A stretch of DNA of 64,000 bases. It comes from an uncultured delta proteobacterium (lineage in GTDB: Bacteria > Desulfobacterota > BSN033 > UBA1163). Under the pieces are notes generated by a model. It ran no database searches and was not told the origin of the DNA. It saw only the letters and a list, made by a program, of their open reading frames with translations. Of the stretch, positions 31,821 to 47,595 are shown one piece after another. Every line of letters begins with the position of its first letter. Within the stretch, counting starts at the first letter, position 1. The stretch is taken from NCBI GenBank assembly GCA_963708295.1, contig CAVPSJ010000004.1:512001-576000 (forward strand). Reading direction: 5' to 3'. The position numbers were made by a program, and so were the translations under genes.

Positions 31821-32177
31821 ATGCTGGTCGAGTATTTCGCCATTCTCGTCTATGTTGCCATCGCCGTTGTTTTCGCCCTCTTCACCATTGCCGCTTCCGC
31901 TCTCTTGGGTCAGAGAAAACCCACGGCTCTCAAACAATCCCCTTACGAATGCGGGATGACGACGGTTGGCTCAAGCTTCCGCAGGATACCGGTCAAGTAC
32001 TACATTATCGCCATGCTTTTTCTTCTGTTTGATATCGAGGTCGTTTTCCTCTACCCGTGGGCGGTGGTTTTCAAAGAATTTAAGGTCTTTGCCTTTATCT
32101 CCATGGCGGTCTTTATTGGAATCTTGCTCATCGCGTATGTCTACATCTGGAAAAAAGGAGCATTGGAATGGGAATAG
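31821..32177 (+). CDS. nuoA: NADH-quinone oxidoreductase subunit A
   Basis: [20 protein letters not shown] and KGALEW motifs. Confidence 0.95.
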
Positions 32178-32674
32178 AAACTTATCTTGAAAAAACCCCT
32201 TTGATGCCCGCCTTAGATTGGATCGTCAACTGGGGACGAAAATATTCGATCTGGCCAGTGACCTTTGGTTTAGCCTGCTGCGCCTTGGAAATGATGGTTG
32301 CCAGTATGGCGAACTGGGATATTGCTCGATTCGGTTCAGAGGTCTTCCGACCCTCTCCTCGACAATCGGACTTGATGATCGTGGCAGGAACCCTGACCAA
32401 AAAGATGGCCCCCATGGTTAAGCGCATCTACGAACAGATGCCAGAGCCCAAGTGGGTCATCGCGTTTGGAGCCTGTGCCTGCTCGGGTGGAATCTTCAAA
32501 ACATACAGCGTCGTTCAAGGAGTGGACCAGATTATACCCGTCGATTTCTATGTTCCGGGCTGTCCCCCTAAACCGGAGGCATTGCTGGCAGCGCTGGTGA
32601 AACTTCAGAAGAAGATCGAGACCGAGAGCCTGTTGGATCGAAAGAATGTTCGAAGTACCCTTGAAATGAAATAG
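32168..32674 (+). CDS. nuoB: NADH-quinone oxidoreductase subunit B
   Basis: [25 protein letters not shown] and PGCPP motifs. Confidence 0.95.
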
Positions 32675-32782
32675 ATTTTATATGACGGATTCATCACTCA
32701 TGAACTGTGAAAATTATAAATTCCCCCTCGCCCCCCCTTTAGTAAAGGAGAGTTGGGGGATTTGGGAAGGGAAGGAAAGGCA

Positions 32783-33271
32783 ATGACCGAGATCAATTTC
32801 ACCATAAAGAAATTAAAAGAAAGATTTGTTAATTCTAATTTAGAGGTGACGACTTTTCGCGGAGAAGTCACCGTGACGGTATCGAAAAAAGAGATTTTTG
32901 AAATCTGTAAATTTCTCCATTCGGACCCAGATCTCCAGTACCGCCTCCTCACCGATCTCTGTGGCCTCGACTTCTTCCCAGAAACCCCCCGTTTTGGAGC
33001 CGTCTACCATCTTTGTTCACTGAAGGGCAATCAACGGCTGAGGGTAAAGACGAGGGTCGGAGAGATGGAATCGATTCCAAGCGTGGAATCGATCTGGAAG
33101 GTAGCAAACTGGTATGAACGGGAGGCCTATGACCTCTTCGGGATTCGTTTCGAAAATCATCCTGACCTGAGAAGAATTCTACTCTGGGAGGGTTATGAAG
33201 GCCACCCTTTAAGGAAAGACTACCCCGCGGAAGGGCCGGATTTCGATAAACCTTTTGTCCCCGAGGTTTGA
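32783..33271 (+). CDS. nuoC: NADH-quinone oxidoreductase subunit C
   Basis: [30 protein letters not shown]. Confidence 0.95.
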
Positions 33272-33383
33272 CCCTTCGGCGTCCTGCAAGCCTCGCCTTC
33301 TCGGGCGGCCCGGTAAAGCTAGCGCTCAGGGTCAACCCTGAGCAAATTACGGCCTTCAGGCCATTATGTCGAATGGGGTTGAC

Positions 33384-34556
33384 ATGGCAGAGACACGGTT
33401 AATGACCATCAATATGGGACCTCAACACCCGGCAACCCACGGAGTGTTGAGGGTTGTGTTGGAATTGGATGGAGAGGTGATCGTCAAGGCAACCCCCGAT
33501 ATCGGGCATCTTCACCGGGGGGTAGAGAAACTGGCTGAAACCAAAACCTACCATCAATCGATTCCTTTGACCGATCGTTTGGATTACACCAATGCGATGG
33601 GCAATAACTTAGCGTATGTTCTGGCGGTCGAGAAACTCCTGGGCCTTGAGGTGCCTAAACGGGCTCAATATCTAAGGGTCCTGATGGCCGAACTCCAGAG
33701 GATTGCTGCCCACCTGATCTGGTTGGGGACGCATGTGCTGGACATGGGAGCGATCACTCCCATCTTTTATACCTTCCGGGAAAGGGAGGCTATTCTCAGG
33801 ATCTTTGAGGAAGTGGCCGGAGGAAGGCTCACTCCGACCTATCTGAGAATCGGCGGGGTTTCCAAAGACCTTCCGGAAGGGATCGAAGAGAAGATCAAGG
33901 CATTCGTCCAGACCTTTCCCGACCATGTGAAGGAATATGAAACCCTGCTGACAAAGAACGTGATCTGGATGAAACGGACCAAGGACGTTGGAGTCATTTC
34001 CCAGGAAGATGCGTTGAGCTGGGGAGTCACGGGCCCAACCTTACGGGGGAGCGGAGAAAAATACGATGTGAGAAAAGCTTTTCCTTATTCGAGTTATGAA
34101 GAATTCAATTTCGATATTCCCATCGGTTCTGTTGGGGATGTCTACGATCGGTACATCGTGCGTTTGCGAGAGATGGAATGGTCGAATGCTATTGTGGAAC
34201 AGGCGTTGGAACGGCTGCCAAAGGGGCCCATCATCACGAACGATCCGCGGATTACCCTTCCGCCGAAGGAAGATGTGGTGACGGATATCGGCGCATTGAT
34301 CCGGCAGTTTAAGATTGTCTCCGAGGGATTCCAGCCGCCCAAAGGCGAAGTCTATGCAAGCGTAGAGGCCTCCAAAGGGGAATTAGGATTCTACATTGTC
34401 AGTGACGGATCGAACCATCCGTTCCGATTCAGGATTCGAACCCCTTCTTTCGCCAACTTGAGCGCCCTCCCGAGGATGGTCGAAGGGAGCCTCATCGCGG
34501 ACGTGATCTCAACCATCGGGAGCATTGACATCGTTCTGGGAGAAATCGATCGGTAA
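33384..34556 (+). CDS. nuoD: NADH-quinone oxidoreductase subunit D
   Basis: NMGPQHPATHGVLR, LHRGVEK, DRLDY and GEIDR; no NiFe CxxC motifs. Confidence 0.95.
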   Translation: MAETRLMTINMGPQHPATHGVLRVVLELDGEVIVKATPDIGHLHRGVEKLAETKTYHQSIPLTDRLDYTNAMGNNLAYVLAVEKLLGLEVPKRAQYLRVLMAELQRIAAHLIWLGTHVLDMGAITPIFYTFREREAILRIFEEVAGGRLTPTYLRIGGVSKDLPEGIEEKIKAFVQTFPDHVKEYETLLTKNVIWMKRTKDVGVISQEDALSWGVTGPTLRGSGEKYDVRKAFPYSSYEEFNFDIPIGSVGDVYDRYIVRLREMEWSNAIVEQALERLPKGPIITNDPRITLPPKEDVVTDIGALIRQFKIVSEGFQPPKGEVYASVEASKGELGFYIVSDGSNHPFRFRIRTPSFANLSALPRMVEGSLIADVISTIGSIDIVLGEIDR

Positions 34557-34570
34557 TAAATAGATAAACT

Positions 34571-34692
34571 CCAAATTCGAAGCACGAAGCTCGAAACAAG
34601 CACGAATGATTAAAATATAAATATCCAAAAAAAACTTTTGAATTTTGAAATTTGGAATTGTTTCGGATTTTGATATTCGGATTTCGGATTTT
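34571..34692. repeat. Palindromic 7-nt-periodic element, copy 1
   Basis: AAATTCGAAGCACGAA...TTTCGGATTTTGATATTCGGATTTCGGATTT; related copies at 36.7 and 46.0 kb. Confidence 0.8.
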
Positions 34693-34711
34693 CCTGAAAT
34701 GAGAGGTTCTT

Positions 34712-36664
34712 ATGACGGACATTCTTTTTAGCAGTTGGGGTGGGGTGGTCACAGACAATCGAGGGAAACCCGAGGCAGAAAGGCAACCCGCTGCAGCGCT
34801 CAATCTTCCCCTGGAATTTGACAAAGAGACAAAGATCAAGGCTTTCATCGGGTGGGATGGGATTGTCATCAGGGACACGGAAGTGAATATCGTCGATTTG
34901 ATCCGGGCTTACCTTGAAGCCGTCCAAAACGAATCCTGCGGGAAGTGTACGCCCTGCCGGGTAGGGACTCGAGTCATGGCGACCCTTGTGAATCGGATTG
35001 CCGATGGTCAAGGCCAGGTGGATGACTTAAAGCAATTGAAATACTTGGGGGAGACCATTCAGAAGAGCTCCAAATGCAACCTCGGGCAGACGGGTCCGAA
35101 GCCTGTCCTGGATGCCGTCGATCATTTTGAAGACCAATTCTCCGGCGCGATCCAATTGCAGAAAAAGATTCCTCGCCTTGAGTATAAAATCAAGGTAACC
35201 GCACCCTGCGAAAGCGCCTGTCCTTCTCATCTCCCCATTACCCGTTATATCGAACTGATCAAAGAAGGAAGGTTTGAGGAATCCCTGGCTGCCATCCGGG
35301 GGGCGACCTGTCTGGCCGGAATCCTGGGAAGGGTTTGTGTCCGTCCCTGCGAAGACAACTGCCGCCGGGGAAATGTGGATGAATGCATCTCCATTAAATG
35401 GCTGAAGCGGTTTGTCGCGGATTATGAGCTGGAAAAGAGGAAAGATCCTTTCGTTAAGAAAGAGGAAATGCGTTCAGAAAAAGTGGCCGTCATCGGCGCG
35501 GGTCCTGCCGGGCTTTCCTGCGCTTACTACCTTGCCCTTAAAGGTTACCCCGTGACCATCTTCGAAAGATTAGGCGAGCCGGGTGGAATGGCAGCCCTGG
35601 GGATTCCCGACTATCGTCTCCCGAGAAATATTGTTGGGTATGAAGCGGAGACGGTAAAAGGATTAGGAGTCGAGATTCGGTATAACACTCAGGTGGGAAA
35701 GGATATTACCCTTTCTCAGATGTTTGAGCAAGGCTATAAAGCCATCTTCATCGGTGTGGGAGCTCAGACCAATACGCCCATGGGGGTCGAGGGAGAGGAT
35801 AAGGGGTATAAAGGATTCATTCCGGGCGTTTATTACCTCCTGGAGATCAATCTGGGAAGAGACCCCTACCCTGAAGGCAAGCGGGTTGTGGTGGTCGGGG
35901 GTGGAAACGTAGCCATTGACTGTGTCCGCTCCTCTTTTCGTATCGGCAAGCCGGATGTCAATCTGGTTTATCGAAGGACGAAAAAGGAGATGCCCGCCGA
36001 TCATGTGGAAATCCATGATGCAGAGGAAGAAGGTGTGAAGTTCCATTACCTCTGTAATCCCGTCCGGATCGTCGAGAAGGAGGGAAAAGTTGTTGGCATG
36101 GAGTGTATCCGGATGGAGTTGGGAGAGCCGGATGAGAGCGGAAGGCGAAGACCGGTCCCGATCAAGGGTTCAGAATTTTTCATCGAAGCCGATATTGCCA
36201 TCCCGGCCATCGGTCAGGCCATTGACCTCTCGTTCCTCGAAGAGACAGACGGGGTGAAGACGACGAGGCGATCTACTGTCGCCATCCAGGAGGGAACCTT
36301 CATGACAAGCCGTCCGGGAATCTTTTCCGCGGGGGATTGCGTGACCGGTCCCGACGTGCTTGTGCGCGCCGCGGGTCACGGAAAGAGAGCCGCTGACAAG
36401 ATCGACCTCTTCCTTCGGGGGATAGAAGTGAAGGAATCTGAAGAAGAGCGCCTGGAGGCCCTGGTGGAGAAGATTAAGGTTTATAACAAGAATGAAAAGA
36501 TTGGAATCTCCGGTGGGCAGAAGAGGGCCGTGTTGAACCTGCTTCCTCCGGATTCGAGAAAATGGATCTTCGACGAAGTGGAGGAAGGATTCTCTATTCC
36601 GGTGGCACAGAAGGAAGCGGAGCGCTGTCTCCGATGTGTAAGAATCGGGTTATTTGCAATTTAA
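34712..36664 (+). CDS. SfrB-like FAD/Fe-S NAD(P)H oxidoreductase (NuoF C-terminal 4Fe-4S domain plus GltD-like domain)
   Basis: FSSWG..VTDNR, AFIGWDG, ESCGKCTPC, MGVEGEDKGYKGF, YRRT and EAERCLRC, as I recall in Geobacter SfrB. Confidence 0.85.
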   Translation: MTDILFSSWGGVVTDNRGKPEAERQPAAALNLPLEFDKETKIKAFIGWDGIVIRDTEVNIVDLIRAYLEAVQNESCGKCTPCRVGTRVMATLVNRIADGQGQVDDLKQLKYLGETIQKSSKCNLGQTGPKPVLDAVDHFEDQFSGAIQLQKKIPRLEYKIKVTAPCESACPSHLPITRYIELIKEGRFEESLAAIRGATCLAGILGRVCVRPCEDNCRRGNVDECISIKWLKRFVADYELEKRKDPFVKKEEMRSEKVAVIGAGPAGLSCAYYLALKGYPVTIFERLGEPGGMAALGIPDYRLPRNIVGYEAETVKGLGVEIRYNTQVGKDITLSQMFEQGYKAIFIGVGAQTNTPMGVEGEDKGYKGFIPGVYYLLEINLGRDPYPEGKRVVVVGGGNVAIDCVRSSFRIGKPDVNLVYRRTKKEMPADHVEIHDAEEEGVKFHYLCNPVRIVEKEGKVVGMECIRMELGEPDESGRRRPVPIKGSEFFIEADIAIPAIGQAIDLSFLEETDGVKTTRRSTVAIQEGTFMTSRPGIFSAGDCVTGPDVLVRAAGHGKRAADKIDLFLRGIEVKESEEERLEALVEKIKVYNKNEKIGISGGQKRAVLNLLPPDSRKWIFDEVEEGFSIPVAQKEAERCLRCVRIGLFAI

Positions 36665-36670
36665 GGGGAT

Positions 36671-36816
36671 TCAAATTCGAAGCACGAAATCCGAAATTCG
36701 AAACAAGCACGAATGTTCAAAATTCAAATGACTCAAACGAACACACATTGTCTAAAACTTTGAGTTTCGGATTTAGGATTTGTTTCGGATTTCGATATTC
36801 GGATTTCGGATTTTCG
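36671..36816. repeat. Palindromic 7-nt-periodic element, copy 2
   Basis: AAATTCGAAGCACGAAATCCGAAATTCGAAACAA...TTGTTTCGGATTTCGATATTCGGATTTCGGATTT. Confidence 0.85.
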
Positions 36817-36838
36817 AAGCTGGAGGCTGGTACAAAGC

Positions 36839-39465
36839 ATGCTGAAGCTAACCATTGATGGGAAAGAAGTGACGGGAAGGCGTGATCAAACGATCTATCA
36901 GGTGGCCAAAGAAAATGGGATCTATATTCCTACCCTGTGTTTTCACCCCAGATTGAGTCTGCTCAAGTCCTGCCGTATCTGTTTGGTCGATGTCCAGGGT
37001 GCGGAGATGCCCATGGCCTCTTGTGCAACGCCCGTGGTGGAGGGCATGGTGGTTCAAACCCGCACGGAGCGCGTCGAAAAGATGAGGCTGGAGGCTTTGA
37101 AGTTATTGTTGGTCAACCATCCTTTGGACTGTCCCGTGTGCGATGCCGGAGGAGAATGCCAGCTCCAGAACCGAACCTATGAATTCGGGATTCAAAAAAA
37201 CGAGTATCCTCCGGAGAAAAGAGAGTTTCCCTCCATCCCTTACGGGACTCCGTTGATCCGGCAATGGTTTGATCGTTGCGTGATGTGTCTCCGCTGCATC
37301 CAGGCCTGCGTGGATGTGCCGGGAGCGGATGTTCTCGAGGTGGCGGAGCATGGTTTTCCCTCCCATGTGAAAGCGGTTCGGAAAGAAAACTGCATCTCCT
37401 GCGGAGAATGCCTCCATATGTGTCCGGTGGGCGCTTTGACCGAGAACCTCAGCCCCTCAAAGGACGGACATGGCAACTGGATAGAATCCAGACCACCTGC
37501 ACTTTCTGCGGGTGCGGTTGCCAGCTCGAGCTGAATACCCTCGCCGACAGGAAAGTAGTCAAGGTGACCACGAAAGGGGAGGCAGGAGTCAATCATGGGA
37601 GCCTTTGTGTCAAGGGAAGATTCGGTTTTGATTTCATCCATCATCCGGACAGACTTCAAAAACCGCTTATCAAAAAATCCGGGATTTTTGTGGAGGCCTC
37701 CTGGGAAGAGGCCCTGGGTTTGGTCGCTACAAAACTTCAAGAAATAAAGAATAAGTACGGTGCCCAGAGCATCGGAGGGATTTCTCCCTCCAGGGGAACC
37801 AATGAGGAGAACTACCTCTTCCAGAAATGGATGAGGGCCTGCGTCGGGACAAACAATATCGATAATGGTGCCCGACTGTCCAGCGGGTCCTCTCTTTCCG
37901 GAATGATGGCCTCCACGGGATGGGGGGCGATGACTCATGCGATGGACGATGTAGCCAAGGCCGACCTCATCCTTATCGTCGGTGCAGACGCGTATGATGA
38001 CAACCTGATCTTTAGCAATAAGATGAGAAAAGCCATCCGTGAGAGGAATGCTAAAGTCATCCTGGTCGATCCTCGGAAGACCCAATGGGAAAAATGGGCT
38101 GACTTCTGGCTGAGACCTCTCCCGGGGACGGATATCGCATGGATCAACGGCCTGATTCGTCTCCTGATCGAAAAAGGGGTTTCTTCAAAAGAATTCGTCG
38201 AATCCAAGACGGAAGGTTTTGAAACCCTGCGGTTTTCTTTAGAGAAATTCTCTCCCGAGTTTGTCAAAAATACTTCAGGAATCTCTCCCGCAGAATTGGA
38301 GGGAGTCGCCAACCTTTATCTGTCGGCGAAAAAGAGGGCGATTGTTTTTGGATCCGGGGTGACCCAACATACTTATGGAACGGAGATCGTAAAAGCCCTC
38401 TGCAACCTGGCCCTGCTGACGGGAGAGACAGAAGAGGGAGGCGGGGGCGTCTATCCGATGCTCACCCAGAACAATGCCCAAGGGGCTTTTGATATGGGTT
38501 CTCTTTCCGAATTCCTCCCCGGTTATCAGAGGGTGGAAGACGAAAAGGCGCGCAGGAAGTTCGAGGAGATCTGGGAGAGGGAAATTCCAGAGAAAACAGG
38601 CCTCACCTCCGTGGAGATGTTCGACACGATTCTGGAAGGGAAGATCAAGGCCCTCTATATCTTCGGCGAAGACCCTTTCGTCAACCTTCCCAACTTGGAG
38701 AGACTCAAGAACGGACTCCATCAATTGGAATTCTTAGTGGTTCAGGATCTTTTCATGACCCACATCGGAAGCTACGCCCAGGTGATTTTGCCGGGGGTGA
38801 GCTTTGCCGAGAAGGATGGAACCTTCACCAGCATGGAGAGAAGGGTTCAAAGGGTGCGAAAGGCCATCTCGCCGGTCGGAGATTCCAGGCCGGACTGGAA
38901 GATTCTCTGCGACCTCTCGACGGCGATGGGTTATTCCATGGGATATCAGAGCCCCGCGGAGATTATGGACGAAATTGCTTCTCTGGTACCCATCTATGCC
39001 GGAATGAGTTACTCCAACCTTGAGAAGGGCGGAATACAGTGGCCCCTAGAGGGTGGCCGGAAACGGAGATTCTTCCCTGTGGAATACCGCGGGCCAGCAG
39101 AGCAGCCCGATGACAAATATCCTTTGTGGATCATTCCCAGAGGGTTTCACTACCATTACGGGATCGGGACGACGACCCAAAGGGCCGTGGGCTTAGCCAA
39201 GGTCTATGCGGATTCCTGCGTCGAAGTCCATCCCGGGGATGCCACCCGAGCAGGACTGGGAGATGGGGACAGGGTAAAGGTCATTTCACCCAGAGGTGAG
39301 GTGGAGACGAGCTGCAAGATTTCCGGAGCCGTCCCCAAAGGAGTCGCTTACTTTGCCACGACCTTTTTCCCTGTTTTTGTCAATAACCTGATCGCCTCCG
39401 GCGATGAATCTACGAATCAACAACCTGAATACAAAGTCTTTATCGGAAGGATAGAGAAAAGGTAG
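36839..39465 (+). CDS. SfrA/NuoG-like Fe-S, molybdopterin-fold subunit (one frameshift near 37455)
   Basis: LVNHPLDCPVCDAGGEC, CISCGECLHMCP and CTFCGCGC; NIDNGARLSSG lacks the Cys/Sec-His. Confidence 0.85.
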
Positions 39466-39474
39466 AGCAAGCTC

Positions 39475-39611: not shown

Positions 39612-40631
39612 ATGGAACTGTTATATCTTCTCATTGAAATCATCATAAAATGCGTGGTGGTTTTTGGCGGCCTGATGCTCGTCGTAGCCTATATGACGCT
39701 GATGGAAAGGAAGGTTTTGGGCCGTATCCAGGTTCGTTTTGGCCCGAATCGCTGCGGCCCCTATGGATTGCTCCAGCCCTTTTCAGATGCGGTCAAAGCC
39801 TTCTTTAAGGAGGATCTGGTTCCCGGAAGGGCGGACAAAGTCGTTTTCGTCCTGGCTCCGACGATCTCGATGATTGCAGCCGTCAGCCTCTTTGCAGTCA
39901 TTCCCTTCGGTGATCAGTTTACCGTTCCTTGGACGAATTGGGTGGTGAAGCTGCGAATCGCCGACATCGACGTGGGGCTTCTCTATGTCTTCGGCATCGT
40001 CTCTTTGGGAGAGTTCGGGATCATCTTAGGGGGCGGGTCTTCGGGGAATAAGTATGGTTTGATAGGTTCCCTTCGAGCAGCGGCTCAGATGATCAGTTAC
40101 GAAACGGCTCTCGGCATCTCGATCGTCGGCGTCCTCATTCTCTCACAGAGTTTGAGCCTCACGGAGATCGTCAAGGTTCAAGGAGGCGGGTTCTGGAATT
40201 GGAATATCTGGTATCAGCCGGTGGCCTTCATGCTTTATCTGATTTGCGGCCTGGCTGAGATCAACCGGGTTCCCTTTGATATGCCCGAAGCGGAGGCCGA
40301 GCTGGCTTGCGGGTTCAACATCGAATACAGCAGCATGAAATTTGCCCTCTTCTTCATGGCCGAGTACGCGCATATGGTGGGGTTGGGCGCTGTCGTCGTG
40401 ACGCTCTTCCTGGGAGGATGGCAGCCGATCCTTCCTCAGCTTGGTTTCATTCCCGGTATCTTCTGGTTCTGCGGGAAGCTCTTTATTATCCTCTTCTTCT
40501 TCATCTGGGAACGAGGAACCATGCCGCGACTCCGATACGATCAGATCATGAAGTTTGGATGGAAGGTTTTGATTCCTCTGGCGCTCATTAATCTTGTCAT
40601 CACAGGGCTGGTCGTTTCACTGAAAGGGTGA
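39612..40631 (+). CDS. nuoH: NADH-quinone oxidoreductase subunit H
   Basis: ERKVLGRIQ.R.GPN, AQMISYE and NRVPFDMPEAEAEL motifs. Confidence 0.95.
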   Translation: MELLYLLIEIIIKCVVVFGGLMLVVAYMTLMERKVLGRIQVRFGPNRCGPYGLLQPFSDAVKAFFKEDLVPGRADKVVFVLAPTISMIAAVSLFAVIPFGDQFTVPWTNWVVKLRIADIDVGLLYVFGIVSLGEFGIILGGGSSGNKYGLIGSLRAAAQMISYETALGISIVGVLILSQSLSLTEIVKVQGGGFWNWNIWYQPVAFMLYLICGLAEINRVPFDMPEAEAELACGFNIEYSSMKFALFFMAEYAHMVGLGAVVVTLFLGGWQPILPQLGFIPGIFWFCGKLFIILFFFIWERGTMPRLRYDQIMKFGWKVLIPLALINLVITGLVVSLKG

Positions 40632-40646
40632 GGAAAGAGGTCGACC

Positions 40647-41060
40647 ATGATCATTCCAATATTAAAGGGTTTAGCATTCACTTTGAACCGGTTCTTCTCT
40701 AAGCCCATCACGGTTCAATATCCTGAGGAAAAAATTCCTCCGGCGAAACGTTGGAGAGGCATTCAATTTTTTGAAAAGGATGAGCGCGGGAAGACCAAGT
40801 GTGTGGCCTGCGGCCTCTGCATGGTCGTCTGTCCTTCTCAATGCATCTCTATCGAGACTGCCGAGGATGAAGAGGGGAGACGCTACCCACTCACCTACGA
40901 ACTGGACGCCACTCGATGTATTTTTTGTGGCTTCTGCGAAGAAGCATGCCCGGTGAATGCCATCTTTATGGGAAAGACCTACGAATGGGTGGAATCGCGA
41001 CGGAAACCCTTACTCATGGATACCGAGAAACTTTTGGAAGAAAAAAAGGTTAATCCGTAG
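40647..41060 (+). CDS. nuoI: NADH-quinone oxidoreductase subunit I
   Basis: CVACGLCMVVCP and CIFCGFCEEACP. Confidence 0.95.
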   Translation: MIIPILKGLAFTLNRFFSKPITVQYPEEKIPPAKRWRGIQFFEKDERGKTKCVACGLCMVVCPSQCISIETAEDEEGRRYPLTYELDATRCIFCGFCEEACPVNAIFMGKTYEWVESRRKPLLMDTEKLLEEKKVNP

Positions 41061-41064
41061 TTCA

Positions 41065-41320: not shown

Positions 41321-41339
41321 AGAACACAGGAGGCAAGGA

Positions 41340-41867
41340 ATGCCTGAGAATATCGTGACCCTATTTCAATGGTTGATCTTTTTGGGAGCGGCTTTTGGTT
41401 CCATCATCGCCTCCTTGTTGGTGATTACCCGAAAGAACCCTATTCACAGCGCTCTTTTTCTAGTGTTCACCTTCCTCTGCGTGTCGGTGCTTTACGTGCT
41501 CCTTTACCAACAATTTATGTTCATCATCCAGATTTTCGTTTACGCCGGTGCCATCGTGATGTTGATCGTCTTTGTCCTCATGCTTCTGGACCTGGAGGTA
41601 GAGCTTCGATCCGGGCTAAAACTTTTCTATTCGAAGGCGATCGGGGGCGTGCTGGCTGTTCTTTTTCTCTTCGGGATCATCTATTCTGTCGTGGCGAAGT
41701 CCCCGACGGGAGCGGTGGGGTCCTATGCACCGGATAAATTGAGCGGCAATGTGAAGGCGGTCGGCGAGATGCTTTTTACTCAATATCTTTTCCCCTTTGA
41801 AATCGTCTCTGTCCTTCTCGCGGCAGCCATCGTCGGAGCGGTCATTTTGAGTAAGAAAAGAACATAG
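41340..41867 (+). CDS. nuoJ: NADH-quinone oxidoreductase subunit J
   Basis: NPIHSAL, VYAGAIVML and LFPFE motifs. Confidence 0.95.
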   Translation: MPENIVTLFQWLIFLGAAFGSIIASLLVITRKNPIHSALFLVFTFLCVSVLYVLLYQQFMFIIQIFVYAGAIVMLIVFVLMLLDLEVELRSGLKLFYSKAIGGVLAVLFLFGIIYSVVAKSPTGAVGSYAPDKLSGNVKAVGEMLFTQYLFPFEIVSVLLAAAIVGAVILSKKRT

Positions 41868-41952
41868 GTAAAGATTCATGACCAATGGTCAGTGATCCAT
41901 TTTCAATGACCATTGACCAATGACAGACAAATGATAATTGAGTGAGGTCACT

Positions 41953-42267
41953 ATGACAATCCCGAACGTTCCCCCTGAATGTTATCTGGTCTTGAGCGGA
42001 ATACTCTTCACGATCGGAGTGATCGGAGCCTTGACCCGGCGAAATGCGATCGTGGTCTTTATGTGCATCGAGTTGATGCTCAATGCCGTGAACATTTCTT
42101 TCGTTGCCCTATCCCGTTTTCTCCAATCCCTGGATGGGGTCCTCTTTGCCTTCTTTGTCATAGCGGTCGCAGCGGCGGAGGCAGCCGTTGGGCTGGCAAT
42201 CTTTGTGATGATCTATCGCTCGAGAGAAACGATCAATGTGGATGAATTCAATATATTGAAGTGGTGA
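41953..42267 (+). CDS. nuoK: NADH-quinone oxidoreductase subunit K
   Basis: [16 protein letters not shown] and [10 protein letters not shown]. Confidence 0.95.
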
Positions 42268-42315
42268 CCCTCTCCCCATCCTCCCCCTTTGAGGGGGAGG
42301 GAAAGGGTGGGGGGA
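42268..42315. repeat. C-rich/G-rich hairpin element (related copies near 32721, 44323 and 47695)
   Basis: CCCTCTCCCCATCCTCCCCCTTTGAGGGGGAGGGAAAGGGTGGGGG. Confidence 0.7.
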
Positions 42316-42330
42316 TGAGAGGAGTCTTTC

Positions 42331-44322
42331 ATGCTCGAAAATGTCTGGTTGATCCCCCTGTTTCCGGCGATCGGCTTTATCATTAATGGGCTCTTCGGCA
42401 GAAGCTTGGGGAAGAAAGTGGTCAGTTGGGTGGGCCCCTCAGTGATCGGGCTTTCCTTTCTCACCTCCATCCTCATCTTCTTCGAATTGATCGGGAAACC
42501 CCCTGCGGAACGTTTCTTTGAGAAAGTCATTTTCGATTGGGTAGTCTCGGGTTCCTTTCAAACGGTCATCGGTTACCAGATCGACCCTCTCTCCATTCTG
42601 ATGGCCCTGGTGGTCACCGGGGTCAGTTTCTTCATCCACATCTACTCGGTAGGGTATATGCACGATGATCCCGGGTTTACCCGGTATTTCACCTACCTCA
42701 ACCTCTTCGTCTTCATGATGCTCAACCTCATCCTGGCCAACAACTTTTTGCTGATGTTTGTCGGATGGGAGGGCGTCGGCCTCTGCTCCTATCTCTTAAT
42801 CGGATTCTGGTATGAAAAGGATTCCGCCTCCAATGCGGGGAAGAAAGCCTTTGTGGTCAACCGGGTGGGTGACTTTGGGTTCCTTGTCGGGATCTTTCTC
42901 CTCTTCACCAGCCTCGGAAAACACGGGATATGGACATTAGATTTTACCGAAGTCTTCGCCAATGCGAGCAAGCTTGATCCGGGGACGGTAACCGCCATTA
43001 CGATTTTGCTCTTTATCGGCGCCTGTGGGAAATCAGCTCAGATTCCCATCTATGTTTGGCTTCCTGACGCCATGGAAGGCCCGACACCCGTCAGCTCCCT
43101 CATCCATGCGGCCACCATGGTCACCGCCGGGGTCTATATGGTCGCCCGGTGCAACGTGCTCTACAGCATGGCGCCCATCGCCATGGCGGTCGTCGCCATC
43201 ATCGGTGTCGCTACGGCCATTTTCACCGCTTCTATCGGAATCTGTCAGACCGACATCAAGAAGGTTCTGGCCTACTCGACCATCAGTCAACTGGGCTATA
43301 TGTTTTTGGGCGTGGGCGTGGGTGCCTTCAGCGCAGGAGTATTTCATCTGATGACGCATGCGTTCTTTAAGGGGCTTCTCTTCCTCGGCGCCGGGAGTGT
43401 CATGCATGCGTTGAGTGGCGAATTAGATATGAGAAAGATGGGAGCCCTCAGGAAGAAGATTCCTTACACGTTCTGGACTTTCTTCATCGCTTGCCTTGCG
43501 ATTGCCGGAATTTTTCCTTTTTCAGGCTTCTTCAGCAAAGATGAGATCCTCTGGCAGGCTTTTTCCAGCTCTCACGGCCACTGGTTGTTGTGGGCGGTCG
43601 CGGCTCTTGCCGCCGGCATGACCGCCTTTTATATGTTCAGGGCTTTGTTCATGGCCTTCTTCGGGGAGTCCAGGGTCGATCACAATGTCGCCCATCATAT
43701 CCATGAATCACCGAGGATTATGACCGTGCCTTTGATGGTCCTCGCGGTTCTATCCATTATTGGAGGATGGATTGGTTGGCCGCATGTTTTAGGAGGAGCT
43801 AACCATATCCATGAATTTCTGGCACCTGTCGTGGGAGGTGGGATTGAACCTGCCAAAGCCCATGCCGGGATCTCAATCCTCTCGCAGGCCTGGGCATCGG
43901 GCGGAGAGACGGGGGGACATTCGGCTGCCCTGGAATTTCTCATGATGGCAATCTCTGTGGTCATTGCCCTCATCGGAATCGGGATCGCTTATCTCTTCTA
44001 TGTGAAGAACCCGGCCCTTCCTAAAATGGCGGCCGAGAAGTGGAAGCGGCTCTATAAACTGGTCTACAACAAATATTATGTTGATGAACTCTATGAAATC
44101 CTCTTCATCAACTCTCTTAAGAATTTGGGCACCGGGCTCTGGAAAGGGTTCGATGAGTTCGTCATTGATGGTACGATCAACGGCATTGCCTATTTCATCG
44201 GTTTACTCTCCGGGGTCATGAGAAAAATGCAGACAGGCCTGGTCCAAAACTACGCGTTTTCAATGATCATCGGTGGAATTGTCGTCGCGGCCTACTATAT
44301 TGTGCGGGCTATATTCTATTAA
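42331..44322 (+). CDS. nuoL: NADH-quinone oxidoreductase subunit L
   Basis: GWEGVGLCSYLLIGFW, WLPDAMEGPTPVS and THAFFK motifs. Confidence 0.95.
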   Translation: MLENVWLIPLFPAIGFIINGLFGRSLGKKVVSWVGPSVIGLSFLTSILIFFELIGKPPAERFFEKVIFDWVVSGSFQTVIGYQIDPLSILMALVVTGVSFFIHIYSVGYMHDDPGFTRYFTYLNLFVFMMLNLILANNFLLMFVGWEGVGLCSYLLIGFWYEKDSASNAGKKAFVVNRVGDFGFLVGIFLLFTSLGKHGIWTLDFTEVFANASKLDPGTVTAITILLFIGACGKSAQIPIYVWLPDAMEGPTPVSSLIHAATMVTAGVYMVARCNVLYSMAPIAMAVVAIIGVATAIFTASIGICQTDIKKVLAYSTISQLGYMFLGVGVGAFSAGVFHLMTHAFFKGLLFLGAGSVMHALSGELDMRKMGALRKKIPYTFWTFFIACLAIAGIFPFSGFFSKDEILWQAFSSSHGHWLLWAVAALAAGMTAFYMFRALFMAFFGESRVDHNVAHHIHESPRIMTVPLMVLAVLSIIGGWIGWPHVLGGANHIHEFLAPVVGGGIEPAKAHAGISILSQAWASGGETGGHSAALEFLMMAISVVIALIGIGIAYLFYVKNPALPKMAAEKWKRLYKLVYNKYYVDELYEILFINSLKNLGTGLWKGFDEFVIDGTINGIAYFIGLLSGVMRKMQTGLVQNYAFSMIIGGIVVAAYYIVRAIFY

Positions 44323-44436
44323 AATCCCCCTCAATCCCCCTTTTCCAAAGGGGGAGGTTGCTCCTCCCTTTCGTAAAGCCTGCCTGCCGGTAGGCATGGG
44401 AGGCTGGGAGGGATTTAGGAAAAAGGAGTCGATTTC

Positions 44437-45984
44437 ATGACAATTCTGGGTATCCCCATTCTATCACTACTCATTTTCTTTCCAATCTTGGGGGCCGTTG
44501 TTCTCCTCTTCATCAACAAAGAGAATGCGACGGCGATCCGGTGGATCGCTCTCATCTTTGCGTTCGTCGAATTTATTTTCTCGCTGCCCCTCTTCTTCTC
44601 ATTCGATCCCAAGACAGCCGCGATGCAATTCGTGGAGGATTGGTGGTGGATTCAGAGTTATGGGATCAGTTACAAATTGGGCATCGATGGAATCAGTCTC
44701 CTCCTGGTCCTCCTGACCACCTTTTTGACGATCCTTTGCATCCTGTGCTCCTGGACTGCCATCACCTTCCGGGTCAAAGAATTCATGATTTCGTTCCTCT
44801 TCCTGGAGACAGGAATGCTGGGTGCCCTGGTGGCCCTCGATCTCGTCCTTTTCTATGTCTTCTGGGAAGTGATGCTCATTCCGATGTACCTCCTCATCGG
44901 TGTCTGGGGTGATCCCAAGAGACGGATCTATGCAGCCGTCAAGTTCTTCCTCTTTACCATGGCCGGAAGCGTGCTGATGCTGGTTGCGATCTTGGCCGTC
45001 TATTTTCTCAATCAGAAGGCAACGGGCGTCTCCACCTTTGACGTGCTCGAACTCTATAAGCTGGGATTGCCCGTTGGAACGCAGTACTGGCTCTTCGGGG
45101 CCTTTGCTCTGGCCTTTGCCATCAAAGTTCCCATGTTTCCATTTCACACCTGGTTGCCAGATGCCCATACCGAGGCGCCGACCGCTGGAAGTGTGATCCT
45201 GGCAGGTGTCTTGTTGAAGATGGGAACTTACGGATTCATCCGATTTGCCATACCGCTGTTTCCGAAGGCAGCCGTTGATCTTTTACCCATCGTCTCCGTT
45301 CTGGCGATCGTAGGGATCATCTACGGCGCATTGGTCTCGATGATGCAGCCCGATCTGAAGCGACTGGTTGCCTTTTCGAGCGTGAGCCATCTGGGATACG
45401 TCATGCTCGGAATGTTCGCCTTCAATACGCAAGGCATCCAGGGATCGATCTATCAGATGCTCAACCACGGCATCAGCACGGGGTCCCTCTTTTTGATCGT
45501 CGGGATGATCTATGAGCGCCGTCACACACGGTTGATCGCCGACTTTGGAGGACTCTCGAAGGTGATGCCAATCTATGCTGTCTTCTTTATGATCGTGACC
45601 CTCTCGTCGATCGGCCTGCCGGGGACGAATGGGTTTGTAGGAGAGTTTCTGATCCTTCTCGGGGCATTTCAGTCCAATGCTGTCTACGGGGTATTGGCCA
45701 CCACAGGCGTTATCCTGGGAGCCGCTTACATGCTGTGGATGTTTCAGAGGGTGATGTTTGGGAAGATCACCCGGCCTGAAAATGAAAAGCTAAAAGACCT
45801 CAATGCTCGAGAGATTGCCATCCTCGTCCCGATGGTCCTCATGATCTTCCTCATGGGAATCTATCCCAAACTTTTCCTCAGCAAGATGGATGCCAGCGTG
45901 GAGAAGTTTATAAAGGATTTCAAGGGAAGGGTTGAAATGAAAGCAGACCTTCCCTCGCAAAAGGTGGCAGAAATCAAAAAATAA
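44437..45984 (+). CDS. nuoM: NADH-quinone oxidoreductase subunit M
   Basis: [19 protein letters not shown] and LLKMGTYG motifs. Confidence 0.95.
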
Positions 45985-46120
45985 AAATTCGAAACACGAA
46001 ATCCGAAATTCGAAACAAATTCGAATGACCGAAAAAAATTCAAAACTGGCAAAAAGAGGACGTTTGAAAAATTTGATATTTGGATTTGTTTCGGGTTTCG
46101 ATATTCGAATTTCGGATTTA
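45985..46120. repeat. Palindromic 7-nt-periodic element, copy 3
   Basis: AAATTCGAAACACGAAATCCGAAATTCGAAACAA...TTGTTTCGGGTTTCGATATTCGAATTTCGGATTT. Confidence 0.85.
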
Positions 46121-46143
46121 TGAGTTAGTGACGGAGGGTTTTA

Positions 46144-47595
46144 ATGAGAATACCAGAAATTGACCTTTATCTCATTGCACCGGAGATTATCATCACTGCT
46201 TTCGGTTTTTTGGTGCTTCTGTTGGATGTCTTTTTACCCAAAGGGGAGAGAAAGAGTTACCTCGGAGTGATCAGCCTCGTCGGGATCGTTTTCGCCGGTA
46301 TTTATACTTTCCCGCAGATGGGGTCTATCCGATCGGGTTTTGAAGGAATGTTCGTCTCGGATGGCTATGCACTCTTTTTTAAGCTCACTTTTCTGATCAT
46401 TGCCTTTTTGACCGTCCTGATCTCCATGGGTTACATCCACAGGGAAATGATCGAGTTTGGGGAATATTATGCCTTGATCCTTTTTGCAACCCTCGGGATG
46501 ATGCTGATGGCAGCCGGATCCCACCTGATCACCATCTTCCTCGGGCTGGAAACGATGTCCATTTCCATCTACGTCCTGGCCGGAATGATGCGAGAGGACA
46601 AGAGGTCCGTGGAAGCGGCGTTGAAATATTTTCTGCTGGGCGCCTTTGCCACAGGATTCCTCCTCTATGGCATTGCCCTGATCTATGGCGCCACAGGAAC
46701 CCTTTATCTGAAAGACATCGCTGCTTATGTCGCTTCTAAGAACCTGTTAAGAAGCCCGATGCTCCTGATGAGCCTTGTTTTTCTCACCATTGGTTTTGGT
46801 TTCAAGATTGCTTCTGTTCCTTTCCATATGTGGACGCCTGATGTCTATGAAGGCGCTCCGACTTCTATTACTGCTTTTATGGCCACGGGGGTGAAGGCAG
46901 CTGCTTTTTCAGCATTGGTGAGGGTATTCTTCTCCGCCTTGCCGGCCTTTCGTGCGGATTGGACCTCGATCATGTGGGTGATTTGCGTGGCGACGATGAC
47001 GGTCGGAAATATTGTGGCGATCTCCCAGACCAATATCAAACGGATGCTCGCTTACTCGAGCATCGCTCATGCGGGCTACATTCTGGTCGCCTTTGTTGCG
47101 GGAAACGATTTAGGGACTTCGGGCATCCTTTTCTATCTCATGACCTATGCCTTCATGAACATCGGCGCCTTTACCGTGGTCATCCTTCTCGGGAAGAAGG
47201 GAGAAGAGAATACCCTGATTAGTGATTATGCGGGGATTGGGTTCAAATACCCGCTCCTGGCTGCCTCCATGACCATCTTTCTCCTCTCCATGGCAGGCAT
47301 TCCTCCTCTGGGAGGATTCATGGCCAAATTCTATATCTTCAGCGCAGCGGTAAAATCAAAATTTTATTGGCTGGCCATAATCGGGGTCCTGAATAGTGCT
47401 GTGTCGGTTTACTACTATCTCCGGGTCACCGTGCTGATGTATTTCAGAGAATCCGAGCGGGAGATCACCGGCCTCCAATTCTCGCCCGCTTCTGTGCTCG
47501 CATTGATTTTGGCCGTCATCGGAACGCTTTACTTGGGAATCTTTCCCGCCAACGTCCTCTCCTTAGCTCAACGATCGATTGCGGGGTTGATGTAA
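46144..47595 (+). CDS. nuoN: NADH-quinone oxidoreductase subunit N
   Basis: EAALKYFLLG, PFHMWTPDVYEGAPT and KRMLAYSSIAH motifs. Confidence 0.95.
   Translation: MRIPEIDLYLIAPEIIITAFGFLVLLLDVFLPKGERKSYLGVISLVGIVFAGIYTFPQMGSIRSGFEGMFVSDGYALFFKLTFLIIAFLTVLISMGYIHREMIEFGEYYALILFATLGMMLMAAGSHLITIFLGLETMSISIYVLAGMMREDKRSVEAALKYFLLGAFATGFLLYGIALIYGATGTLYLKDIAAYVASKNLLRSPMLLMSLVFLTIGFGFKIASVPFHMWTPDVYEGAPTSITAFMATGVKAAAFSALVRVFFSALPAFRADWTSIMWVICVATMTVGNIVAISQTNIKRMLAYSSIAHAGYILVAFVAGNDLGTSGILFYLMTYAFMNIGAFTVVILLGKKGEENTLISDYAGIGFKYPLLAASMTIFLLSMAGIPPLGGFMAKFYIFSAAVKSKFYWLAIIGVLNSAVSVYYYLRVTVLMYFRESEREITGLQFSPASVLALILAVIGTLYLGIFPANVLSLAQRSIAGLM

What the first reader, a model, noticed from the sequence alone, without database searches (positions are those of the whole stretch)
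31821..47595. Complex I with an SfrB/SfrA-like module in place of NuoEFG
Seen: the order nuoABCD - flavoprotein - NuoG-like - nuoHIJKLMN, with no nuoE and no FMN-binding nuoF in the operon. The flavoprotein keeps only the NuoF-type C-terminal 4Fe-4S domain ahead of a GltD-like FAD domain with YRR. Established: Geobacter SfrAB is a soluble NADPH oxidoreductase. Inference: a proton-pumping NADPH:quinone oxidoreductase, or reverse electron transport to NADP+. It could be linked to the divergently transcribed FDH operon, which has a homologous GltD domain.
Basis: partly seen in the sequence, partly recalled or inferred. Interest (0 to 1): 0.7.

Follow-up and report, generated by a model that had tools for sequence, protein, structure and literature searches.

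The report
Complex I with NADPH-type input module
This anaerobe's respiratory complex I operon carries, where the NADH-binding genes normally sit, an NADPH-type iron-sulfur flavoprotein and a worn-out formate-dehydrogenase-like wire subunit, a design shared by many relatives but never tested at the bench.

Summary
Pfam gives nuoA-B-C-D, a 650-aa flavoprotein, a NuoG/FdhA-like gene, then nuoH-N. The flavoprotein has a NuoF-type C-terminal 4Fe-4S domain, a 2x[4Fe-4S] domain and a GltD/NfnB-type FAD/NAD(P)H domain. The operon holds no nuoE and no FMN domain.

Two caveats. The NuoG-like gene is in two frames because one base is missing at 37456/37457. A canonical nuoA-BCD-E-F-G-H..N operon lies on another contig.

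The design is widespread. The flavoprotein lies directly after nuoD in 46 of 55 genomes of the family, and in 29 of those it is the only NuoD locus. It is nuo-linked in at least 67 of 401 sampled genomes of the phylum, in 18 families. Flavoprotein and NuoD trees recover the same clades.

NuoG-type cluster ligands, GxGxxA and Tyr-Arg-Arg (the NADP-phosphate binders of NfnB) are invariant. The FDH active site is Ser-Ser.

Best reading: a reversible NADPH:menaquinone complex I. This is inference only.

The idea is published for Campylobacterota (preprint 10.1101/717884). I found no paper on this two-gene Desulfobacterota form. The scan noted the same design on five other genomes.

The parts
31821..32177 (+). 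nuoA
   Evidence: Pfam Oxidored_q4, E 7.9e-37
32168..32674 (+). nuoB (N2 cluster subunit)
   Evidence: Pfam Oxidored_q6. NCBIfam NF005012 scores 241.3 bits against a cut-off of 116.
32753..33271 (+). nuoC
   Evidence: Pfam Complex1_30kDa, E 4.5e-46
33366..34556 (+). nuoD (quinone-site subunit)
   Evidence: Pfam Complex1_49kDa, E 1.6e-117. TIGR01962 scores 569.5 bits against a cut-off of 459.
34557..34711 (.). Spacer holding a copy of a genome-wide palindromic (REP-like) repeat
   Evidence: blastn-short hit of the 36665-36838 spacer at C4:546658-546693; predicted hairpin of -34.4 kcal/mol
34712..36664 (+). SfrB-like flavoprotein, 650 aa. Domains: NuoF-type C-terminal [4Fe-4S] domain, 2x[4Fe-4S] Fer4_20 domain, and FAD/NADP(H) GltD/NfnB-type domain with a C-terminal CxxC tail.
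   Evidence: Pfam. Invariant residues C76, C79, C122, C166, C170, C209, C213, C217, the G262/G264/G267 FAD motif, G398, Y420, R421, R422, C639 and C642. AlphaFold model has pLDDT 92.9 and pTM 0.91. Best folds are NfnABC, StnABC and NfnB.
36665..36838 (.). Spacer with a long palindromic REP-like repeat
   Evidence: Predicted hairpin of -47.9 kcal/mol; 108 blastn-short hits on 15 contigs of the genome. Very high contig depth and loose ends here in public runs.
36839..39465 (+). SfrA-like NuoG/FdhA-type subunit. It carries 2Fe-2S and 4Fe-4S clusters of N1b, N5, N4 and N7 type, plus a molybdopterin-oxidoreductase body with Ser-Ser at the FDH active site. The reading frame is broken by a 1-base gap after 37456.
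   Evidence: Pfam Fer2_4, NADH-G_4Fe-4S_3, Fer4_Nqo3, Molybdop_Fe4S4, Molybdopterin and Molydop_binding. Frames. The gap against 3 relatives. Invariant ligands C34, C45, C48, C62, H94, C98, C101, C107, C147, C150, C153, C185, C188, C191 and C195. Active site ARLSSGSS.
39612..40631 (+). nuoH
   Evidence: Pfam NADHdh, E 4e-118
40647..41060 (+). nuoI (N6a/N6b)
   Evidence: Pfam Fer4 families. TIGR01971 scores 145.5 bits against a cut-off of 113. 8 Cys are invariant in 28 sequences.
41340..41867 (+). nuoJ
   Evidence: Pfam Oxidored_q3
41938..42267 (+). nuoK
   Evidence: Pfam Oxidored_q2
42331..44322 (+). nuoL
   Evidence: Pfam Proton_antipo_M, Proton_antipo_N and Proton_antipo_C
44437..45984 (+). 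nuoM
   Evidence: Pfam Proton_antipo_M
46144..47595 (+). nuoN
   Evidence: Pfam Proton_antipo_M
30777..31241 (-). NuoE-like 2Fe-2S protein; first gene of the divergent operon
   Evidence: Pfam 2Fe-2S_thioredx, E 8.3e-53. NCBIfam NuoE/HoxE models.
27777..30266 (-). NuoF (FMN, SLBB, 4Fe-4S) fused to a GltD-type FAD/NAD(P)H domain, 829 aa. It is a paralogue of the flavoprotein, 46% identical over residues 17-574.
   Evidence: Pfam; identity
24925..27608 (-). FdhA-type formate dehydrogenase with an in-frame TGA before His (CARL*HSSTV). In this assembly it is read in three frames.
   Evidence: Pfam on the fragments; tblastn frames -3, -1 and -2; active-site alignment; the TGA=U read-through shows the breaks are frameshifts

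Best explanation
The operon encodes a 13-subunit respiratory complex I. The three-subunit NADH module NuoEFG is replaced by two proteins of the SfrB/SfrA type.

Proposed electron path. NADPH binds the GltD/NfnB-type domain of the flavoprotein and reduces its FAD. Electrons pass through the flavoprotein's two [4Fe-4S] clusters and the N3-type cluster of its retained NuoF C-terminal domain. That domain also serves as the docking surface. Electrons then enter the N1b/N4/N5-type clusters of the NuoG-like subunit, whose formate-dehydrogenase body is catalytically dead (Ser-Ser). From there they go to NuoI, NuoB and menaquinone, with proton translocation by NuoH and NuoJ-N.

The reaction should be reversible. 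In a syntroph-like anaerobe the proton-motive force could drive menaquinol to NADP+, and the NADPH could feed cytoplasmic formate or hydrogen production, such as the divergent selenocysteine FDH.

Shown here: gene content, domain and ligand conservation, wide and old linkage with the Nuo core. Inferred: assembly, NADPH specificity, direction of flow, proton pumping.
For: (1) The two genes sit exactly in the nuoEFG slot. The operon has no nuoE and no FMN domain.

(2) Linkage is conserved. In the family, an orthologue of at least 73% identity occurs in 49 of 55 genomes. In 46 of these it starts less than 700 nt after nuoD on the same strand, and 29 of the 46 have a single NuoD locus.

(3) In the phylum, the 100 best places outside the family were fetched. 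Of these, 45 are nuoD-sfrB-sfrA-nuoH, 3 nuoD-sfrB-sfrA at a contig end, 3 nuoD-sfrB at a contig end, 1 nuoD-sfrB-nuoH and 3 nuoN-sfrB-sfrA. They fall in 17 families.

(4) The NuoD tree (50 rows) and the flavoprotein tree (100 rows) recover the same clades: {window, f2, f3}, {f4, f61}, {f17}, {f23, f64, f52}, {f13, f56, f62} and {f15, f49}.

(5) All NuoG-type ligands are invariant in 28 of 28 nuo-linked sequences, including the HxxxCxxCxxxxxC N5 motif. The NuoI ligands are invariant too. The N3-type cysteines C76, C79 and C122 are invariant in 29 of 29.

(6) NADP(H) fingerprint. G398 is invariant and G396, N399 and A401 nearly so (GxGxxA). Y420, R421 and R422 are invariant. They align with the VYRRT stretch of T. 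maritima NfnB 4ylf_B, whose Tyr310/Arg311-312 bind the NADP phosphate according to preprint 10.1101/717884 (passages).

(7) Solved NfnABC/StnABC enzymes show a GltD-type NADPH domain wired to a NuoG-like cluster chain. They are the best sequence and fold matches: E 2.9e-114; Foldseek E 7e-52, TM 0.66-0.68.

(8) An RNA-library run holds contigs 90-97% alike over sfrB, sfrA and nuoH. This is weak evidence, because DNA carry-over is not excluded.
Against: No result here shows that the two proteins bind the Nuo core.

Stand-alone sfrB-sfrA pairs are interleaved with nuo-linked ones in the tree: 29 of the 100 fetched places are stand-alone, and the nuo label needs 8 changes. The module can therefore live without the operon. 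The characterised Geobacter SfrAB is reported as soluble (recalled; Coppi 2007 seen only as a citation).

In three genomes the pair lies after nuoN, not in the EFG slot.

In this assembly the NuoG-like gene is frameshifted. Public contigs are mixed on that point. One contig in X3 (depth 4.44 of 4.44) and one in X1 (23.9 of 69.4) carry an extra base there. X2 (0 of 42-149) and X19 (0 of 3.66) show none.

The genome also has a canonical NADH-type complex I, so the variant is not needed for NADH oxidation here. NADPH preference rests on motifs only.
Confidence: 0.55

Rival explanations
1. The pair is a soluble SfrAB-type NADPH oxidoreductase (for example NADPH:ferredoxin) that is only co-transcribed with an 11-subunit, ferredoxin-fed complex I. 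It supplies or drains the same redox pool but does not dock.
For: Stand-alone pairs are common and interleaved in the tree (29 of 100 places; 8 label changes). Three operons place the pair after nuoN. Eleven-subunit complexes without any N-module exist in other anaerobes (passages of PMC11238625 and PMC4911364).
Against: The pair sits between nuoD and nuoH in 45 of 100 fetched places and in 46 of 55 family genomes. It retains the NuoF docking domain and every NuoG-type ligand. Its tree is congruent with that of NuoD.
Confidence: 0.15
2. The module is a flavin-based bifurcating or confurcating head. The NfnB-type FAD splits NADPH electrons between the Nuo chain (menaquinone) and ferredoxin. In reverse, the complex makes NADPH and reduced ferredoxin from menaquinol at the cost of proton-motive force, as proposed for Sulfurimonas.
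For: The FAD domain is of the NfnB type, which bifurcates in NfnAB. The closest solved relatives are bifurcating NfnABC/StnABC. The hypothesis is in print for the Campylobacterota version (10.1101/717884, passages).
Against: No ferredoxin-binding element and no second flavin were identified here. There is no BfuB/BfuC-type FMN subunit in the operon. The energy of NADPH to menaquinone cannot pay both for full proton pumping and for ferredoxin reduction (inference).
Confidence: 0.12
3. The complex oxidises NADH, not NADPH. It does so either at the GltD-type site or by borrowing NuoE/NuoF-type subunits encoded elsewhere.
For: The genome has 10 NuoF-FMN-domain matches, including one 1.5 kb upstream in the divergent operon.
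Against: The flavoprotein's own NuoF C-terminal domain should occupy the NuoF site on the NuoG-like subunit (inference). Tyr-Arg-Arg and GxGxxA are invariant. 29 of 46 family genomes with the variant have no second NuoD locus.
Confidence: 0.08
4. In this particular genome the variant complex is inactive because the frameshift in the NuoG-like gene is real. The canonical operon on C19 does the work.
For: The frame is broken. X2 contigs covering the place show no extra base (0 of 42-149). The canonical operon is present.
Against: Three of three relatives carry the extra base. One contig each in X3 and X1 carries an extra base there. The neighbouring FDH gene has two more frameshifts. The sfrA genes of two other assemblies are split at other places. 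This pattern is typical of assembly indels. All other operon genes are intact.
Confidence: 0.08

Closest known systems
Non-canonical complex I of chemoautotrophic Campylobacterota (Sulfurimonas denitrificans; Suden_1824 in place of NuoF). Source: preprint 10.1101/717884, passages read.
   Same: An NfnB/GltD-type flavoprotein stands in the NuoF position of a nuo operon. The NADP-phosphate-binding Tyr-Arg-Arg is conserved. A reversible NAD(P)H-linked function has been proposed. Neither form has been tested biochemically.
   Different: By that paper's account, the Campylobacterota form also has a non-canonical NuoE replacement and two NuoG paralogues. The window has no gene between nuoD and the flavoprotein, and one FdhA-like NuoG. 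The phylum differs. Sequence relatedness to Suden_1824 was not tested here, because no such sequence was on hand.
SfrAB, the soluble NADPH oxidoreductase of Geobacter sulfurreducens. Coppi 2007 and Kaufmann & Lovley 2001 are recalled, and were seen only as citations.
   Same: The two-protein make-up is the same. The beta subunit has a NuoF-type 4Fe-4S domain plus GltD. The alpha subunit is NuoG/FdhA-like. Stand-alone sfrB-sfrA pairs in the same phylum are about 41-61% identical to the window's flavoprotein and nest among nuo-linked clades.
   Different: The window's pair is embedded between nuoD and nuoH instead of forming its own operon. I could not name the stand-alone genomes, so identity with the characterised enzyme is not tested.
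Bfu-type NfnABC / StnABC transhydrogenases (PDB 9n5u, 9bov, 8oh5)
   Same: They are the best sequence and fold matches of the flavoprotein's residues 157-647. They show a GltD-type NADPH/FAD domain wired to a NuoG-like Fe-S chain.
   Different: There, the GltD domain is fused to the NuoG-like protein, and the enzyme has NuoF/NuoE-like FMN subunits and is soluble. Here the GltD domain is fused to a NuoF C-terminal remnant, no FMN subunit is present, and the context is a membrane complex.
Nuo-Bfu (Schut et al. 2022, PMC9304861; passages read)
   Same: It is a complex I operon of anaerobes, including Geobacter and Deferribacteres, with a non-standard input module in the middle of the operon.
   Different: Nuo-Bfu keeps three BfuABC (NuoE/F/G-like) subunits with FMN, for 14 subunits in all, and is proposed to confurcate NADH and ferredoxin. 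The window has no NuoE-like or FMN subunit.
Canonical NuoEFG N-module; this genome's own copy is on contig C19
   Same: The NuoG-type N-terminal cluster ligands and the N3-type domain are kept.
   Different: NuoE and the FMN/NADH domain of NuoF are absent. The NuoG-like subunit is only 23-31% identical to the C19 NuoG, and it scores as Fdh-alpha (661.9 bits) rather than NuoG (196.7 bits on the same fragment).

Membership tests
Respiratory complex I (Nuo) core | Genes for the 11 core subunits A, B, C, D, H, I, J, K, L, M and N in one operon | tested here: met
   All 11 Pfam families are found in order on the + strand. NuoD, NuoB and NuoI exceed the NCBIfam cut-offs.
Respiratory complex I (Nuo) core | NADH module: NuoE (2Fe-2S thioredoxin-like) and NuoF with an FMN domain | tested here: not met
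   There is no PF01257 or PF01512 match in 31821-47595.
Respiratory complex I (Nuo) core | NuoG-type cluster chain (N1b, N5 with a His ligand, N4) | tested here: met
   C34/C45/C48/C62, H94/C98/C101/C107 and C147/C150/C153/C195 are invariant in 28 of 28 sequences.
SfrAB-type NADPH oxidoreductase | Beta subunit: NuoF C-terminal 4Fe-4S + 2x[4Fe-4S] + FAD/NADPH GltD domain. Alpha subunit: NuoG/FdhA-like. | tested here: met
   Pfam architecture. About 650-aa homologues cover the full length.
SfrAB-type NADPH oxidoreductase | Stand-alone two-gene locus; soluble enzyme | tested here: not met
   The locus is embedded in nuo. Solubility is not testable here.
SfrAB-type NADPH oxidoreductase | NADPH-dependent activity | not testable with these tools
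   Only motifs are available: GxGxxA and Y420-R421-R422.
Campylobacterota (Sulfurimonas-type) non-canonical complex I | NfnB/GltD-type flavoprotein in place of NuoF, with the NADP-phosphate-binding Tyr-Arg-Arg | tested here: met
   The definition comes from preprint 10.1101/717884.
Campylobacterota (Sulfurimonas-type) non-canonical complex I | A non-canonical NuoE replacement and two NuoG paralogues | tested here: not met
   The 155-nt spacer between nuoD and the flavoprotein holds no ORF of 80 aa or more and is filled by a repeat. There is one NuoG-like gene.
Nuo-Bfu | BfuABC (NuoE/F/G-like, with FMN) in the middle of the operon | tested here: not met
   The definition comes from PMC9304861.
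Catalytic formate dehydrogenase alpha (FdhA/FdhF) | Sec or Cys followed by His at the Mo/W site | tested here: not met
   The window reads ARLSSGSS. The divergent FdhA reads CARL(TGA)HSS. Nuo-linked relatives of f44 and f64 read CH. TIGR01591 scores 661.9 bits, below the cut-off of 666.25, on the C-terminal fragment.
NfnB/GltD NADPH-binding flavoproteins | FAD GxGxxG, NADPH GxGxxA, Tyr-Arg-Arg after beta-2, and two [4Fe-4S] clusters | tested here: met
   G262/G264/G267, G398/A401, Y420/R421/R422, and C166/C170/C209/C213/C217. Alignments to 4ylf_B and 5jca_L. Fold TM 0.79-0.81 on the target.

The most novel reading that the evidence does not exclude
This complex may be the missing reverse-electron-transport engine of syntrophic Desulfobacterota. 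In this reading, the proton-motive force drives menaquinol (from acyl-CoA or succinate oxidation) uphill to NADPH at the SfrB-type head. The NfnB-type flavin might also bifurcate to ferredoxin. The NADPH would be passed to neighbouring NAD(P)H-linked selenocysteine formate dehydrogenases for interspecies formate transfer. In lineages where the NuoG-like subunit keeps Cys-His (f44, f64), the same scaffold would be a formate-linked complex I.
Probability: 0.15. Interest if true: 0.85.

Novelty: new variant of a known kind. Interest (0 to 1): 0.6.

Why it matters
'Headless' complex I operons are common in anaerobes, and what feeds them is a long-standing open question. Here the answer would be written in the operon itself: an NADPH-type head.

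If it assembles as proposed, a large part of the Desulfobacterota would couple the NADPH pool directly to menaquinone and the proton-motive force. In my sample that is at least 67 of 401 genomes in 18 families, and in many of them it is the only complex I. This changes energy budgets for syntrophs, sulfate reducers and iron reducers. It also offers a route for reverse electron transport.

Pathway-scoring pipelines that demand nuoE and nuoF would score such genomes as lacking complex I. One comparative study reports complete nuoA-N in only 0-38% of the genomes of its four lineages (passage of PMC13685792). Whether that study covers this family is not known.

It would also recast the long-puzzling soluble SfrAB of Geobacter as a relative of a complex I input module.

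Tried and rejected
- Complex prediction, with the NuoG-like N-terminal 206 residues (alignment A3) against NuoI (alignment A4), returned 'no answer' (score 0.00). It is neither support nor evidence against.
Only 1 of 80 loci (L013) had the nuo context. I therefore switched to the genome search plus fetched regions.
- My first context classifier miscounted because stop-to-stop ORFs overlap. It was replaced by the order-based one. That one still files L119, a 3.4-kb contig printed as nuoD-sfrB-sfrA, under 'no nuo'.
- Selenocysteine as the cause of the breaks in the divergent FDH gene: the TGA=U read-through shows frameshifts instead, apart from the one active-site TGA.
- Promoter and terminator scans gave nothing above shuffles: 13 against 13.8 and 21 against 22.5.
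- The protein atlas gave only generic names.
- The listing of cluster members could not be run because the database is off.
- Nuo-Bfu was considered and rejected, because no FMN subunit is present.
- A catalytic FDH role for the window's NuoG-like subunit was rejected because of Ser-Ser at the active site.
- Ten literature searches found no paper on the two-gene form in Desulfobacterota. Pereira et al. 2011 is not held.
- Parts of the laid stretch without cover in the runs are not used as evidence.

Full report
**What is in the window.** ORF listing and Pfam give, on the + strand: nuoA (31821-32177), nuoB (32168-32674), nuoC (32753-33271) and nuoD (33366-34556). Next come a 650-aa flavoprotein (34712-36664) and a NuoG/FdhA-like gene (36839-39465). 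Then follow nuoH, I, J, K, L, M and N (39612-47595).

The flavoprotein has three parts: the NuoF C-terminal NADH_4Fe-4S domain (residues 62-144), the two-cluster Fer4_20 domain (163-242) and a Pyr_redox_2 FAD/NAD(P)H domain (257-557). It has no Complex1_51K FMN domain, and the operon has no NuoE-type gene. A whole-genome search finds 10 NuoF-FMN matches, none inside the operon. NuoD, NuoB and NuoI exceed NCBI's curated cut-offs.

**Two corrections.**

- *Frameshift.* The NuoG-like gene is read in two frames. Aligned with three relatives, the window lacks one base after 37456: AGCCCCTCAAAGG against AGCCCCATCAAAGG in 3 of 3. Public contigs are mixed on this. One contig in X3 (depth 4.44 of 4.44) and one in X1 (23.9 of 69.4) carry an extra base at 37452/37456. 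X2 (0 of 42-149) and X19 (0 of 3.66) do not. The neighbouring FDH gene has two more frame changes. The sfrA genes of two other assemblies of the family are split at other places. I therefore think an assembly error is more likely than decay, but this is not settled.
- *Second operon.* The genome carries another, canonical operon on contig C19: nuoA, a fused BCD, then E, F, G and H-N. Its subunits are only 23-56% identical to the window's.

**How widespread the design is.** In the 55 genomes of the window's family (21 genera), an orthologue of the flavoprotein (at least 73% identity, four of them partial) is present in 49. In 46 of these it starts less than 700 nt downstream of nuoD on the same strand. 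In the other three the two genes lie on different contigs. Of the 46, 29 have one NuoD locus only, so the variant is their only complex I. Fifteen of the 55 genomes also have a BCD-fused, canonical-type NuoD.

In an even sample of 401 genomes of the phylum (111 families), 146 have a match at E <= 1e-150. I fetched the 100 best places outside the family with 5.5-kb flanks and labelled their ORFs with the window's proteins. The counts were:

| Context | Places |
|---|---|
| nuoD-sfrB-sfrA-nuoH | 45 |
| nuoD-sfrB-sfrA, cut by a contig end | 3 |
| nuoD-sfrB, cut by a contig end | 3 |
| nuoD-sfrB-nuoH, no sfrA | 1 |
| nuoN-sfrB-sfrA | 3 |
| sfrB-sfrA, no nuo gene in the locus | 29 |
| sfrB with neither neighbour | 16 |

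One short contig (L119) counted as 'no nuo' was printed as nuoD-sfrB-sfrA. The nuo-linked loci come from 17 families. Adding the window's family gives 18 families. Adding its 12 sampled genomes gives at least 67 of 401 genomes. This is a lower bound, because lower-ranked places were not fetched.

**Evolution.** I built a tree of 100 rows: 98 locus proteins, the window and a paralogue as outgroup. Two locus proteins were dropped for length. Stand-alone pairs sit at the base, and nuo-linked clades interleave with stand-alone ones. The nuo label needs 8 changes, against 33.2 in shuffles, with 0 of 500 shuffles as low.

A NuoD tree of the nuo-linked loci (50 rows) recovers the same clades: {window, f2, f3}, {f4, f61}, {f17}, {f23, f64, f52}, {f13, f56, f62} and {f15, f49}. 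The head and the core have therefore been inherited together for a long time. The pair has also been gained or shed several times.

**Cofactors.** In 28 nuo-linked NuoG-like N-termini, the ligands of the 2Fe-2S cluster (C34, C45, C48, C62) are invariant. So are those of the His-ligated N5-type cluster (H94, C98, C101, C107) and of the ferredoxin-type clusters (C147, C150, C153, C185, C188, C191, C195). Those of the N7-type cluster are nearly invariant. NuoI keeps all eight cysteines.

In 29 flavoprotein homologues the following are invariant: the N3-type cysteines, the GltD-type cluster cysteines, the FAD motif, G398 of the GxGxxA motif (A401 nearly so) and Y420-R421-R422. That triplet aligns with VYRRT of T. 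maritima NfnB. By my column count it falls on Tyr310/Arg311/Arg312. Preprint 10.1101/717884 names these residues as the NADP-phosphate binders (passages).

The AlphaFold model is confident (pLDDT 92.9, pTM 0.91). Its best structural matches are the GltD-type parts of NfnABC and StnABC, then NfnB/NfnI, GltD and DPD.

The molybdopterin body of the NuoG-like subunit is closer to FdhA than to NuoG: TIGR01591 scores 661.9 bits against 196.7 for NuoG. It has Ser-Ser where FDHs have Sec/Cys-His. Relatives vary at this pair: GS, TH, CL and, in f44 and f64, CH.

**Neighbourhood.** The divergent operon encodes three proteins: a NuoE-like protein, a NuoF (FMN) fused to a GltD domain, and an FdhA with TGA-His at the active site. 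In G049 and G006 a Sec-split FdhA-like gene lies directly upstream of nuoA on the same strand. This recurrent but variable vicinity is a weak hint of a link to formate metabolism.

**Mechanism.** The best-supported reading is a complex I whose NADH head has been replaced by an NADPH head. The path would be FAD, then 2x[4Fe-4S], then the N3-type cluster, then the NuoG-type chain, NuoI, NuoB and menaquinone. It would be reversible under proton-motive force. The shown and inferred steps are separated in the Best explanation section. The one docking job gave no answer and is not used.

The rivals are:
- a co-transcribed soluble SfrAB-type enzyme;
- a bifurcating head that also handles ferredoxin;
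- NADH use;
- inactivity in this genome.

**Comparison with the literature.** The concept is in print for chemoautotrophic Campylobacterota. There an NfnB-like protein replaces NuoF, beside a NuoE replacement and two NuoG copies, and reverse electron transport to NAD(P)H and ferredoxin is proposed (10.1101/717884, passages). Nuo-Bfu (PMC9304861, passages) keeps FMN subunits and is a different thing.

I also read passages of the following, and none describes the two-gene form found here:
- Spero 2015 (PMC4453560);
- Kremp 2020 (PMC7483475);
- Aklujkar 2012 (PMC3543383);
- the HMM survey preprint;
- the Smithellaceae study (PMC13685792);
- several genome papers.

Nor did ten full-text searches find it. 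Public annotations call the flavoprotein 'formate dehydrogenase beta subunit', 'FAD-dependent oxidoreductase' or 'dihydropyrimidine dehydrogenase subunit A'. Subscription journals and supplements were not searchable. Coppi 2007, Kaufmann & Lovley 2001, Sievert 2008 and Weerakoon & Olson 2008 are known to me only from recall or citations.

**Earlier notes of this scan.** The scan has met the same design on five other genomes, and the Campylobacterota form on others. Those notes gave me the two key papers. I checked both papers myself.

**Verdict.** This is a real, conserved and widespread variant of complex I with an SfrAB-type, probably NADPH-linked input module. I file it as a new variant of a known kind. 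It is biochemically untested, and in this assembly it is blemished by a probable 1-base error.

Noticed in passing
window 34557-34711, 36665-36838 and about 45985-46119: Three intergenic spacers of the operon (nuoD-sfrB, sfrB-sfrA, nuoM-nuoN) hold copies of a palindromic repeat of roughly 130-140 nt. Its arms are rich in CGAAAT/ATTTCG, and the predicted hairpin reaches -47.9 kcal/mol. The repeat gives 108 blastn-short hits on 15 contigs of the genome. Public runs show very high contig depth and many loose ends there. It looks like a REP- or MITE-like element. A role in mRNA processing or stability inside the operon is possible.
   Followed up: partly
window 24925-27608 (- strand): The divergent FdhA gene is read in three frames (27599-26892, 26899-25397, 25440-24925). 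It carries an in-frame TGA before His at the active site, so it is a selenocysteine FDH. With the NuoE-like gene and the NuoF+GltD fusion upstream, the domain set equals StnABC/NfnABC plus a live FDH site. This may be an NADH/NADPH-linked or bifurcating formate dehydrogenase.
   Followed up: partly
L122 and L129 (f44); L165 (f64): In these nuo-linked operons the NuoG-like subunit keeps Cys-His at the FDH active site (CARLCHASTV, SARRCHGASV). Those complexes might still oxidise formate or reduce CO2.
   Followed up: no
L142, L143, L145 (family f49): [quoted passage not shown] Other genomes of the same family (L107, L111, L148, L149) have it in the usual slot, with a fused nuoCD.
   Followed up: no
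L115 (family f61): This operon reads nuoD-sfrB-nuoH with no NuoG-like gene between them. It may be a head without the wire subunit, or the gene may lie elsewhere.
   Followed up: no
L194 4811-6883 (G049) and L195 7929-10004 (G006): An FdhA-like gene split by a single stop, probably a Sec codon, lies directly upstream of nuoA on the same strand. In G006 and G051 the sfrA-like gene is itself split into pieces.
   Followed up: no
G000 contig C19:72877-88172: This is the second, canonical complex I operon, with a fused nuoBCD (853 aa) and nuoE, F and G. Fifteen of 55 family genomes have such a fused NuoD frame.
   Followed up: partly
window 51528-53378 (- strand): A further molybdopterin-oxidoreductase gene, 26% identical to the SfrA-like protein over 643 residues.
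   Followed up: no
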